A stretch of 64,000 nt of DNA, taken from assembly GCF_009914755.1 (NCBI RefSeq), contig NC_060930.1; one strand, written 5' to 3'. Position 1 is the stretch's first letter, and every line of letters begins with the position of its first letter. Under the pieces are notes generated by a model. The model saw only the letters and a list, made by a program, of their open reading frames with translations, ran no database searches and had not been told where the DNA came from. Origin of the DNA: the human T2T-CHM13v2.0 reference genome, Homo sapiens. Shown in pieces: positions 16,155 to 20,913 of the stretch. A program made the position numbers and the translations under genes.

Positions 16155-16166
16155 CCAAACCCTATT

Positions 16167-16170
<4 letters not shown>
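16155..16170. repeat. Left copy of the 16-bp target-site duplication (ccaaaccctatttctt) of the SVA-plus-transduction insertion
   Basis: An identical 16-mer lies at 18934-18949. This copy abuts the T-run 16171-16197 (minus-strand polyA). Confidence 0.95.
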
Positions 16171-16197
<27 letters not shown>

Positions 16198-16523
16198 GAT
16201 GAGCAGTCAGAACACACACAGCATTTATTGGAAGTTTTCCATCTTATATGGGCACAGTTTGTGGCTCCCCAAAACAATTAGAATAGTAATATCAAAGATC
16301 ACTGATCACAGATCACCATAACAGATATAATAATAATGAGAAACTGAAATGTCGCAAAAATTACCAAAATGTGACCCAGAGACAGGAAGTGAGCGCATGC
16401 TGTTGGACAAATGGCACTGATAGATTTGCTTGACACAGGGTTGCCAGAAACCTTCCATTTGTTAAAAAATGCAATATTTGCGAAGTACAATAAAGTGAAA
16501 CACAGTAAAATGAGGTGTGCTGG
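16198..16523 (-). mobile_element. Tigger1 5'-end fragment, carried in the transduction and cut off at the polyA
   Basis: Matches the remembered Tigger1 terminus (…cctcattttactgtgtttcactttattg…ggtgatctgtgatcagtgatctttg…tgtgtgtgttctgactgctc). It ends abruptly at the T-run and does not continue beyond the TSD. Confidence 0.85.
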
Positions 16524-16609
16524 GCATCCTGCCATTTATGCACATGCCTCTTTAGGTAGAAAATAATCCTGTAACAGTTGAGGCTGTGGTTGCCTTTCTG
16601 AGACTCTTG

Positions 16610-16920
16610 TCTACAGAAATGGTCAACTGGTGGCCAGCTGGCCAAAGGGCTAATCTAGCCCACAGACATGTTTAGTTGGGGCTACATAGAGCTTTTTACA
16701 AATTTGAGTCAATATTTAGAAAATAAAAGTCTGGATTTTGGGATTCCCTTACAAAAACTGGAAAATTTGGCCACACTGGGTCATATTCCCACATAGTCGT
16801 GGTGGTTGGGGTTCAGTAGCAGTAGCTGCTGCCCCTTAAGACAGGTCCCCATGGTCCCCACTCAGTTGCTTCCTTATTTATCTTACAAGCCTGGCAAGGA
16901 ATTTGAGTTGAACTGATCTA
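16610..16920. mobile_element. hAT-Charlie MITE relic (MER102-like) inside the transduced segment
   Basis: Resembles the MER102/MER58 group (tctagcccacagacatgttt…ctggaaaatttggccacactggg…atttgagtt). Confidence 0.55.
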
Positions 16921-17110
16921 GAAGATTGGTGCTAAGAACCAGCTCAGTGGCTTAGCTGTCCTGGGGTCTGCAGGAGAAGGCTTCTTTGTTAGGCCCAGGC
17001 AGGAAGTCTGGGCATGGATTGAGGTTTTTTTTTTTTTTTTTTTTGACCTTTTAAATATTTATTTATTTTTTATTTTATTTTATTTTATTTTATTTATTTA
17101 TTTATTTTTA

Positions 17111-18933
17111 ATTGATCATTCTTGGGTGTTTCTCGCAGAGGGGGAGTTGGCAGGGTCATAGGACAATAGTGGAGGGAAGGTCAGCAGATAAACAAGTGAA
17201 CAAAGGTCTCTGGTTTTCCTAGGCAGAGGACCCTGCGGCCTTCCGCAGGGTTTGTGTCCCTGGGTACTTGAGATTAGGGAGTGGTGATGATTCTTAACGA
17301 GCATGCTGCCTTCAAGCATCTGTTTAACAAAGCACATCTTGCACCGCCCTTAATCCATTTACCCTGAGTGGACACAGCACATGTTTCAGAGAGCACAGGG
17401 TTGGGGGTAAGGTCACCGATCAACAGGATCCCAAGGCAGAAGAATTTTTCTTGGTACAGAACAGAATGAAAAGTCTCCCATGTCTACTTCTTTCTACACA
17501 GACGCGGCAACCATCCGATTTCCCAATCTTTTCCCCACCTTTCCCCCCTTTCTATTCCACAAAACCGCCATTGTCATCCCTGCCCGTTCTCAATGAGCTG
17601 TTGGGTACACCTCCCAGACGGGGTGGTGGCCGGGCAGAGGGGCTCCTCACTTCCCAGTAGGGGCGGCTGGGCAGAGGCGCCCCTCACCTCCCGGACGGGG
17701 CGGCTGGCCGGGCGGGGGGCTAACCCCCCCCCCATCTCCCTCCCCGACGGGGCGGCTGGCCGGGCAGAGGGGCTCCTCACTTCCCAGTAGGGACGGCCGG
17801 GCAGAGGCGCCCCTCACCTCCCGGATGGGGCGGCTGGCCGGGCGGGGGGCTGACCCCCCCCACCTCCCTCCCGGACGGGGCGGCTGGCCGGGCGGGGGGC
17901 TGACACCCCCACCTCCCTCCCCGACGGGGCGGCTGGCTGGGCAGAGGGGCTCCTCACTTCCCAGTAGGGGCGGCCGGGCAGAGGCGCCCCTCACCTCCCG
18001 GACGGGGCGGCTGGCCGGGCGGGGGGCTGACCCCCCCACCTCCCTCCCAGACGGGGTGGCTGCCGGGCGGAGATGCTCCTCACTTCCCAGACGGGGTGGC
18101 TGCAGGGCGTAGAGGCTCCTCACTTCTCAGATGGGGCGGCCGGGCAGAGATGCTCCTCACCTCCCAGACGGGGTCCCGGCCGGGCGCTCTCACATCCCAG
18201 ACGGGGCGGCGGGGCAGAGGCGCTCCCCACATCTCAGGCGATGGGCGGCGGGGCAGAGACGCTCCTCACTTCCTAGATGGGAAGGTGGCCGGGAAGAGGC
18301 GCTCCTCACTTCCTAGATGGGATGGCGGCCGGGAAGAGGCGCTCCTCACTTCCTAGACGGGATGGCGGCCGGGAAGAGGCGCTCCTCACTTTCCAGACTG
18401 GGCAGCCAGGCAGAGGGGCTCCTCACGTCCCAGACGATGGGCGGCCAGGCAGAGACGCTCCTCACTTCCCAGACGGGGTGGCGGCCGGGCAGAGGCTGCA
18501 ATCTCGGCACTTTGGGAGGCCAAGGCAGGCGGCTGGGAGGTGGAGGTTGTAGCGAGCCGAGATCACGCCACTGCACTCCAGCCTGGGCACCATTGAGCAC
18601 TGAGTGAACCAGACTCCGTCTGCAATCCCGGCACCTCGGGAGGCCGAGGCTGGCGGATCACTCGCGGTTAGGAGCTGGAGACCAGCCCGGCCAACACAGC
18701 GAAACCCCGTCTCCACCAAAAAAGTAAGAAAACCAGTCAGGCGTGGTGGCGCGCTACAGGCACTCGGCAGGCTGAGGCAGGAGAATCAGGCAGGGAGGTT
18801 GCAGTGAGCCGAGATGGCAGCAGTACAGTCCAGCTTCGGCTCGGCATCAGAGGGAGACCATGGAAAGAGAGGGAGAGGGAGACCGTGGGCCGTGGGGAGA
18901 GGGGGAGGGGGAGGGGGAGAGGGAGAGGGAGAG
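17111..18933 (-). mobile_element. Full-length SVA retrotransposon (young SVA_D/E/F-like): hexamer, Alu-like, VNTR and SINE-R domains
   Basis: Read on the minus strand: (CCCTCT)n-type hexamers ~18866-18933, antisense Alu-like region ~18490-18860, GC-rich VNTR ~17610-18490 (units like gggcagaggcgctcctcacttcccagacgggg), and HERV-K-derived SINE-R ~17111-17610 ending cccaagaatgatcaat. CpGs are largely intact, so the element is young. Confidence 0.98.
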
Positions 18934-18949
18934 CCAAACCCTATTTCTT
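18934..18949. repeat. Right copy of the 16-bp target-site duplication, next to the SVA hexamer 5' end
   Basis: ccaaaccctatttctt is followed by ga. The empty site reads TTTCTT/GA, a variant of the L1 endonuclease site TTTT/AA. Confidence 0.95.
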
Positions 18950-18999
18950 GAGGGAAGCAAACCTATTATCTTTAGCCTAAAATCCAAACAGTTGGCTGA

Positions 19000-19347
<348 letters not shown>

Positions 19348-19655
19348 ACTCCTTTTTTTCTTTTAGCCCACATTAGGATATTACTGAGTCTTCTCGTTTT
19401 CATACAAAATATTGGAAAAGAAGCGTGAGCTCACTAGTTCAGCTGGTATACCCATGGCATGAGGCTGCAGGGGGCACAGAATGGTGTAGGAGCTGGAGGG
19501 TGGCAGGCTTTGCATTCAGACCTGGATTGCGAGTCTGTCACTTGGATTCCTTAGCTTGTGACAGTGGCCACATTTTATGACATATCTGAGCCTTTGCCTT
19601 ATCATTCGTGAAACATGTTCTGGCATTGCAGAGATAATATATGCAAAGTTCCTAG

Positions 19656-20028
<373 letters not shown>

Positions 20029-20913
20029 AATGTCAAAAGGTCTTTTTATTTAGTTGAAATGTGAGCCAGTTTCTTCCCAACATGTGGACATTTTGTCTAT
20101 AAGGAGATGATGTGGAAAAGAATGGATGATTCAGTTAAAAAGCAAACTAGCAGTAGATGCAAAGTGGCTGGTGACCAGGGTCGGCTCACACACAGCGGCC
20201 CTGGGGAAGGAAAGCTCCCATAGTCCCTCCGACCACCTTCAAGTTTTTTATGCATTAGGACCGTCCACCAGACCTCACCTGCAACCTCACCCGCAACCTA
20301 CGTCTGCTTACCATTTAAACAATCAACCAGGTTGGCAAGACCTTCCAAACTTGACCCCAAATTTGACCTCGTCCTTATACACTCTGTGCCTAGAGCATAC
20401 CTGACTACAGGTGCAGCATACAAATATCATCTCACCCAGAAAAAGAAATCCTAAAATGAGGCTTCCCAATAGAGAGCTCAAATTTTGTATTGACTCTTGC
20501 TCCCTGCTCCTAACAGAAACTCACTGCAAATGATGTAAATATTTGACTGTCTTCTCTCATGTGGGTGTAATGCCCTTATCCTGTCAGACTTCCACACGTG
20601 TCTTAGAGAGTTAGCAATTAGAAGCAGGACCCAACTGCCTTCCAGGGCCTTCAATAATCACAGAGTATAGCAAGACATTTGACAAAAGTGAGAGCAAAGT
20701 GGAAGCAGGAAGCTTGACTTTCTTACATTGTCCCAGGGATGCAAGAAAAGCTCTTTGAGCCTCCTCCAAATCAATGATATACTGATGAAATATGTTATAC
20801 CATGTTAGCAGCATTTCCTAAAGAAACATTAGTTTACTACTAGAAAGTTTGCTGAACAATCATTTCCAGAGTGCTCGCAGGCCCAAGGAAAGGCAGAGGC
20901 AAAGAAAGTGTAA

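What the first reader, a model, noticed from the sequence alone, without database searches (positions are those of the whole stretch)
17025..17117. Three stacked A-tails suggest a multi-generation (serial) SVA transduction lineage
Seen, on the minus strand: SVA end (…gatcaat), then a patterned A-rich tail (aaata/aaaat units, ~17058-17110), a 13-nt non-A spacer tatttaaaaggtc (17045-17057), a pure A20 (17025-17044), the 827-bp flank, and the terminal polyA (16171-16197). Inference: the degenerate tail is oldest. The spacer would be a TSD or flank remnant from a grandparent locus, A20 the parent's tail, and the outer polyA this insertion's tail. That would record at least three retrotransposition rounds, and sibling SVAs should share the spacer.
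Basis: partly seen in the sequence, partly recalled or inferred. Interest (0 to 1): 0.7.

Follow-up and report, generated by a model that had tools for sequence, protein, structure and literature searches.

The report
Four-generation SVA jump pedigree, lost parents
A human jumping element (SVA) on chromosome 6 carries stacked A-tails and 827 bases copied from chromosome 9, shares them with a sister copy on chromosome 20, and its upstream DNA heads a copy on chromosome 2, which likely records four successive jumps, two from parents missing from this genome; such chains are a known kind of event.

Summary
Observation confirmed to the base. A full-length SVA (minus strand, 17111-18933), patterned tail, 13-nt spacer, A20, 827-nt flank and outer A27 all lie inside one 16-nt target-site duplication (TSD). 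The flank has three full copies in CHM13. Chr20:35.26 Mb is a sibling SVA with the same spacer. Chr9:36.94 Mb is the native site: no SVA, spacer or A20, and the copied stretch starts at a TTT/AAAA endonuclease site. New here: the window SVA is itself a source. Chr2:135.47 Mb carries 52 nt of the window's upstream flank, an extra G and a shared 9-nt deletion. The grandparent that would have donated the spacer was not found, so that step is inferred. Tail purity is not an age clock (tail 2 is pure on chr6, patterned on chr20), and stacked tails also occur in 5 of 33 other SVAs. Concatenated transductions and lost sources are published (PMC12593883). A clean new example of a known process.

The parts
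18934..18949 (-). 5' copy of the 16-nt target-site duplication
   Evidence: identical to 16155-16170
18934..18985 (-). 52-nt upstream flank (5' TSD plus 36 nt) found as a 5' transduction on the SVA at C2:135,475,348-135,475,399; inferred transcription start at 18985
   Evidence: 52 of 52 identical, preceded on chr2 by one extra G and chr2's own TSD; the 25-mer occurs only at these two places
17111..18933 (-). full-length SVA body (hexamer, Alu-like, VNTR of about 895 nt, SINE-R), likely the hs_SVA_DRb row hg19 chr6:106301000-106301492; carries a 9-nt Alu-like deletion shared with the chr2 copy
   Evidence: subfamily row (hg19 position matched through recalled offsets)
17107..17112 (-). SVA poly(A) signal in the ATTAAA variant form
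17058..17110 (-). tail 1: patterned AAAT/AAAAT tail with ten AATAAA hexamers, a clade-wide trait
17045..17057 (-). 13-nt spacer, inferred micro-transduction (TSD or flank) from a grandparent locus that was not found
   Evidence: identical on chr20, absent at chr9; origin unmapped
17025..17044 (-). tail 2: A20, inferred tail of the chr9 parent; its last three A likely belong to the chr9 target site
16198..17024 (-). 827-nt 3' transduction from C9:36,940,799-36,941,626
   Evidence: 98% to chr9, 99% to chr20; the old repeat cut at its end continues only on chr9
16224..16229 (-). AATAAA in the transduced flank, 26 nt before tail 3 (23 nt on chr20)
   Evidence: distances counted from the sequence
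16171..16197 (-). tail 3: A27, this insertion's own tail
16155..16170 (-). 3' copy of the target-site duplication

Best explanation
The window holds one L1-type SVA insertion with two stacked 3' add-ons, a 13-nt spacer and 827 nt of chr9 DNA, both shared with a chr20 copy, and its upstream flank heads a chr2 copy, which likely records four generations: an inferred grandparent (not found), an inferred parent in a chr9 PAX-gene intron (no SVA there in CHM13), the chr6 and chr20 sisters, and a chr2 daughter of chr6. Step 1 (inferred): the grandparent had a weaker ATTAAA signal and a patterned tail full of AATAAA hexamers; cleavage 13-24 nt past the last hexamers, at a CA, captured 13 nt of TSD or flank. 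Step 2 (inferred from the junction): that RNA inserted at the chr9 TTT/AAAA site with tail 2. Step 3 (structure shown, source inferred): the chr9 element read through to an AATAAA about 800 nt downstream and was cleaved at two CA sites 3 nt apart, giving chr20 and chr6, each with its own TSD. The chr9 allele was later lost or is polymorphic. Step 4 (structure shown, direction well supported): chr6 was transcribed from 52 nt upstream, ended at a proximal signal, and gave chr2 without spacer or flank.
For: One TSD encloses SVA, tails and flank on chr6 (16 nt) and on chr20 (14 nt). The flank has three full copies. On chr9 the old repeat runs on past the transduction end, to nt 1193-1602 against 7 paralogues, while chr6 and chr20 stop at 824-829, and homology starts at TTT/AAAA. 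Chr6 keeps 3 more chr9 bases than chr20, so it is not a child of chr20. All 3 polarisable differences that chr6 and chr20 share against chr9 are derived on the chr9 side, so no intermediate copy is needed. The spacer fits the chr9 target region no better than 43% of 191 background windows. Chr2: 52 of 52 identical upstream bases including the window's TSD, an extra G, its own 10-nt TSD, the same 9-nt deletion junction (only window and L082 among fetched loci) and one shared non-CpG SINE-R change; tree support 81/86. Untemplated 5' G from capped RNA is described in PMC3287187.
Against: Neither ancestor is seen: no SVA at chr9, no chr9:36.9 Mb row seen in the hg19 SVA_D table, and no filled grandparent. 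A 13-nt word cannot be mapped uniquely (20 other 16-mer hits). Chr6 and chr20 are not a supported clade: 0 of 9 inner branches starred, 20 differences between them against 12 and 17 to the chr10 copy. A chr6-to-chr20 route early on is not formally excluded. If all 8 shared differences lie on the chr9 branch, that branch is long against 3 and 3 (P about 0.06). The chr2 copy differs from chr6 at 13 sites, lacks two clade-diagnostic SINE-R bases and has a longer VNTR (about 1298 against 895 nt), which needs gene conversion or later change.
Confidence: 0.8

Rival explanations
1. The spacer is not flank from a grandparent. It arose inside the chr9 parent's single tail, by mutation, untemplated addition or a short template switch during reverse transcription, so tails 1 and 2 are one tail and there is a single 3' transduction.
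For: No donor locus found. Short islands in tails occur in 5 of 33 other SVAs. Tails demonstrably change after insertion (chr6 against chr20 tail 2).
Against: Eight non-A bases in 13 nt, ending at a CA 13-24 nt after AATAAA hexamers, fit a cleavage site and the usual TSD length. The spacer stayed identical in both sisters while the tails around it diverged.
Confidence: 0.13
2. An unseen intermediate SVA stood between chr9 and the two sisters, or chr6 was the parent of chr20, so the chain has a different order or one more step.
For: Eight substitutions shared by chr6 and chr20 against CHM13 chr9; 5 of them could not be polarised.
Against: 3 of 3 polarisable sites are derived on chr9. No extra tail or flank follows the 827 nt. 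Chr20 lacks the 9-nt deletion that chr6 passed to chr2.
Confidence: 0.05
3. Spacer and A tract are native chr9 flank that was deleted, together with the SVA, from the CHM13 haplotype.
For: No outgroup genome could be read, and no repeat spans the chr9 junction to prove continuity.
Against: The junction is a clean endonuclease-type site, as expected of an empty pre-insertion allele, and nothing near it resembles the spacer.
Confidence: 0.02

Closest known systems
Concatenated SVA transductions (Kirby et al. 2025, PMC12593883)
   Same: Sequence from several source loci on one SVA, showing that offspring act as sources (27 cases; passage). Donor loci without an SVA are read as lost or rare sources, including an SVA_D example (sections 9 and 10).
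   Different: Their set is non-reference polymorphic insertions. This is an older reference SVA_D, its first add-on is only 13 nt, and the chain switches from 3' to 5' transduction. These loci and motifs were not found in the searchable supplement (cells over 400 characters are cut).
hs_SVA_DRb subfamily (Damert 2018, PMC6139936)
   Same: Rows hg19 chr6:106301000-106301492 and chr20:32123495-32123988 fall at the expected places, among rows matching most of the other marker-bearing copies; neither row lists a chimp or gorilla coordinate.
   Different: The rows carry no note on transduction. The likely row for the chr2 daughter (chr2:135790203-135790696) is filed as hs_SVA_DR, not DRb.
5'-transducing SVA groups (Damert et al. 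2009) and SVA 3' transductions (Xing et al. 2006)
   Same: Upstream start giving a 5' transduction, and read-through giving a 3' transduction (recalled; only the reference entries were seen).
   Different: Not readable here, so whether these loci are already listed there is open.

Membership tests
SVA (SVA_D, hs_SVA_DRb) | hexamer, Alu-like, VNTR, SINE-R, A-tail, TSD | tested here: met
SVA (SVA_D, hs_SVA_DRb) | subfamily-diagnostic SINE-R substitutions | not tested
   Assigned from the published table by position; the published consensus file was not read
L1-mediated 3' transduction | element, extra DNA and poly(A) inside one TSD | tested here: met
   16-nt TSD on chr6, 14-nt on chr20
L1-mediated 3' transduction | extra DNA native to another locus, with a poly(A) signal near its end | tested here: met
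   chr9 continuity and AATAAA at 16224-16229
L1-mediated 3' transduction | source element present directly upstream at the donor locus | tested here: not met
   No SVA at chr9 in CHM13; an endonuclease-type empty site instead. Lost or polymorphic sources are a recognised case
Concatenated (serial) transduction | two add-ons, each followed by its own tail | tested here: met
   spacer + A20, then flank + A27
Concatenated (serial) transduction | each add-on maps to a distinct source locus | tested here: inconclusive
   The flank maps to chr9; the 13-nt spacer is not from chr9 but cannot be mapped
SVA source element by 5' transduction | a copy elsewhere carries the source's upstream flank inside its own TSD and shares private changes | tested here: met
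   chr2:135.47 Mb
Human-specific insertion | absent at ape orthologues | not testable with these tools
   Only the published table (blank chimp and gorilla columns)

The most novel reading that the evidence does not exclude
Patterned AATAAA-rich tails are inherited down an SVA lineage and act as a movable poly(A) signal that clips off the parent's TSD as a 10-25-nt tag. Such micro-tags, too short to map by ordinary search, would be a widespread barcode for lost source elements. This lineage would then mark an SVA in a PAX5 intron that was active early on the human line and then vanished.
Probability: 0.3. Interest if true: 0.5.

Novelty: new member of a known kind. Interest (0 to 1): 0.3.

Why it matters
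It gives a locus-resolved SVA pedigree with two missing ancestors and one precise, testable address: an empty site at T2T chr9:36,940,795, in an intron of a PAX gene (PAX5, name recalled). It also shows one element acting as recipient of 3' transductions and donor of a 5' transduction. The principle is established, so the value is as a clean example and as a lead that very short tags between A-tails can trace lost source elements. No effect on a gene or trait is shown.

Tried and rejected
Grandparent search: none of the 20 other exact 16-mer hits has a SINE-R in its 3-kb locus. None of the 11 other marker-bearing SVAs has the spacer after its tail, nor in the TSD candidates or 5' flanks printed. 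Spacer end plus hexamer run gave 1 hit (C1:185.64 Mb, at the 25-nt gap limit), and that stretch has no second copy nearby, so it was rejected. A spacer templated from the chr9 target site was rejected. The spacer is not the TSD of chr6, chr20 or chr9. Tree of 12 rows (L081 left out, 5'-truncated): star-like, spacer carriers unresolved. The search with the 766-nt upstream flank was swamped by Alu matches and missed the chr2 copy. No repeat spans the chr9 junction. The hg19 chr2:135725446 row, shared with chimp, was considered as the daughter and set aside for the row at chr2:135790203 on recalled offsets. Literature: SVA + 3 transduction + PAX5 gave 0 papers; the patterned-tail search gave 0; no title among the 15 listed of 29 papers on SVA with the host-gene names concerned this lineage. 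Xing 2006, Damert 2009 and Ostertag 2003 were not held.

Full report
Observation. On the minus strand the window holds a full-length SVA (18933-17111), then a 53-nt patterned tail, the 13-nt spacer (17057-17045), A20 (17044-17025), 827 nt of other DNA (17024-16198) and A27 (16197-16171). A 16-nt TSD at 18934-18949 and 16155-16170 encloses all of it, so it is one insertion.

Where the flank comes from. A search of the own genome with the 827 nt gave three full-length matches among the 40 candidates scored: the window, C20:35,261,309-35,262,134 (99%) and C9:36,940,799-36,941,626 (98%); the other 37 match only the last 270-320 nt or so, an old repeat (Tigger1 by recall). On chr9 that repeat continues to nt 1193-1602 against 7 paralogues, while on chr6 and chr20 it stops at the poly(A). 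Chr9 is therefore the native site. It holds no SVA, spacer or A tract, and homology starts at TTT/AAAA, an L1 endonuclease-type site (motif as in PMC3287187). The site lies between paired-domain exons (C9:37.04 Mb) and Pax2_C exons (C9:36.87-36.91 Mb) on the minus strand, so in an intron of a PAX gene (PAX5, recalled); the missing SVA would have been antisense to it.

The sibling. Chr20 has SVA, patterned tail, the identical spacer, a second A-rich tail, the flank and a third tail inside its own 14-nt TSD. The spacer 19-mer occurs only at chr6 and chr20 (the reversed control gave 4, so the count alone is not evidence). In 825 aligned columns, chr6 and chr20 share 8 substitutions against chr9; chr6 has 3 private substitutions and a 2-nt deletion (one more change at the junction was outside the count), and chr20 has 3. 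The 3 shared sites that paralogues can polarise are all derived on the chr9 side, so no intermediate copy is needed. Both use the same AATAAA but end 3 nt apart at neighbouring CA sites, chr6 being longer, so chr6 is not a child of chr20. Six private substitutions give 3.6-7.3 million years at assumed rates of 1.0 and 0.5 x 10^-9 per site per year (95% range 1.3-16; reverse-transcription errors included).

The clade. Thirteen SVAs carry one SINE-R marker; 6 also match the ATTAAA end exactly. Only chr6 and chr20 have the spacer. Tails with two or more AATAAA occur in 11 of 13 against 5 of 22 controls (Fisher p = 0.0005; members are related, and the controls were the ATTAAA-type loci among the first 30 of 216 matches). 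Tail 1 is thus an inherited trait older than the spacer. Damert 2018 lists rows at the expected hg19 places for both sisters as hs_SVA_DRb, with no ape coordinate and no note; 1 of 56 DRb rows is shared with chimp (hg19 places rest on recalled offsets). A tree of 12 copies is star-like, with 0 of 9 inner branches starred, and does not join chr6 and chr20.

The daughter. The SVA at C2:135.47 Mb begins with 52 nt identical to window 18985-18934, including the window's 5' TSD, preceded by one extra G and chr2's own 10-nt TSD. That 25-mer exists only at these two places, allowing 2 mismatches. On chr6 the stretch runs on into local sequence and its TSD part recurs at the far end, so the direction is chr6 to chr2. 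The two also share a 9-nt deletion junction in the Alu-like domain and one non-CpG SINE-R change. Chr2 keeps a patterned tail but has no spacer or flank, so its RNA likely ended at a proximal signal. Against a simple copy: 13 differences, two clade-diagnostic bases lacking, and a longer VNTR.

The grandparent. Not found. The spacer is not the TSD of chr6, chr20 or chr9, and it fits the chr9 neighbourhood no better than background. It ends at a CA 13, 17 and 24 nt after the last three AATAAA hexamers of tail 1, which suits cleavage just inside a TSD or flank. This step is inference. An origin within the tail cannot be excluded; similar islands appear in 3 of 22 controls and 2 of 11 other clade members.

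Order follows from position and clade sharing, not from decay: tail 2 is pure A20 on chr6 and a patterned 37-mer on chr20.

Comparison with print. PMC12593883 (outline, sections 9 and 10, passages, supplement searches) reports 27 concatenated transductions and sources inferred to be lost or rare; these loci were not found in its searchable supplement, where long cells are cut. PMC6139936: outline, sections 5, 9, 11, passages, supplement 2 searches and part 19. PMC10681720, PMC3287187 and PMC6191304: passages; the one held supplement of the last gave no coordinate match, and its full insertion list may not be in that file. Xing 2006, Damert 2009 and Ostertag 2003 were not held and may list these loci. 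Searches showed no title or abstract start on this lineage.

Verdict. Interest 0.3.

Noticed in passing
L082 (G000:C2:135,473,096-135,475,399): The daughter SVA has the general SVA_D bases at two adjacent clade-diagnostic SINE-R positions and a VNTR about 400 nt longer than its source: possible gene conversion or recombination.
   Followed up: partly
L012 (G000:C9:36,940,795-36,941,626): The CHM13 chr9 copy differs from both transduced copies at 8 sites, 5 of them A/T to G/C on chr9; the branch looks long (P about 0.06). Possibly GC-biased conversion or deep coalescence.
   Followed up: partly
L088 (G000:C10:46.39 Mb): Closest copy to the window SVA (12 differences); shares ATTAAA, a patterned tail and one G>T change with chr6, chr20 and chr2, but has no transduction. 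May be another offspring of the lost chr9 or grandparent element.
   Followed up: partly
L045/L080 (C1:48.36 Mb), L046/L081 (C1:202.00 Mb), L033, L035, L040: Other SVAs with a short non-A island before a last A tract; candidate micro-transductions.
   Followed up: no
L030 and L021-L044 generally: The ATTAAA form of the SVA poly(A) signal is frequent: most of the 100 listed of 216 matches carry it without the clade marker, so it likely arises repeatedly.
   Followed up: no
L089 (G000:C14:70.13 Mb): A stretch of 25 nt or more upstream of the SVA recurs about 260 nt downstream of its 3' end; unusual duplication or transduction.
   Followed up: no
window 17016-17517: The RefSeq enhancer covers tails 1 and 2, the spacer and most of the SINE-R; the SVA lies in an intron of lncRNA LOC105377923 in the same orientation.
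   Followed up: no
window 19039-19348 and 19700-20039: Two Alu copies upstream of the SVA; the second is flanked by a short direct repeat (19700 and 20030), likely its TSD.
   Followed up: no
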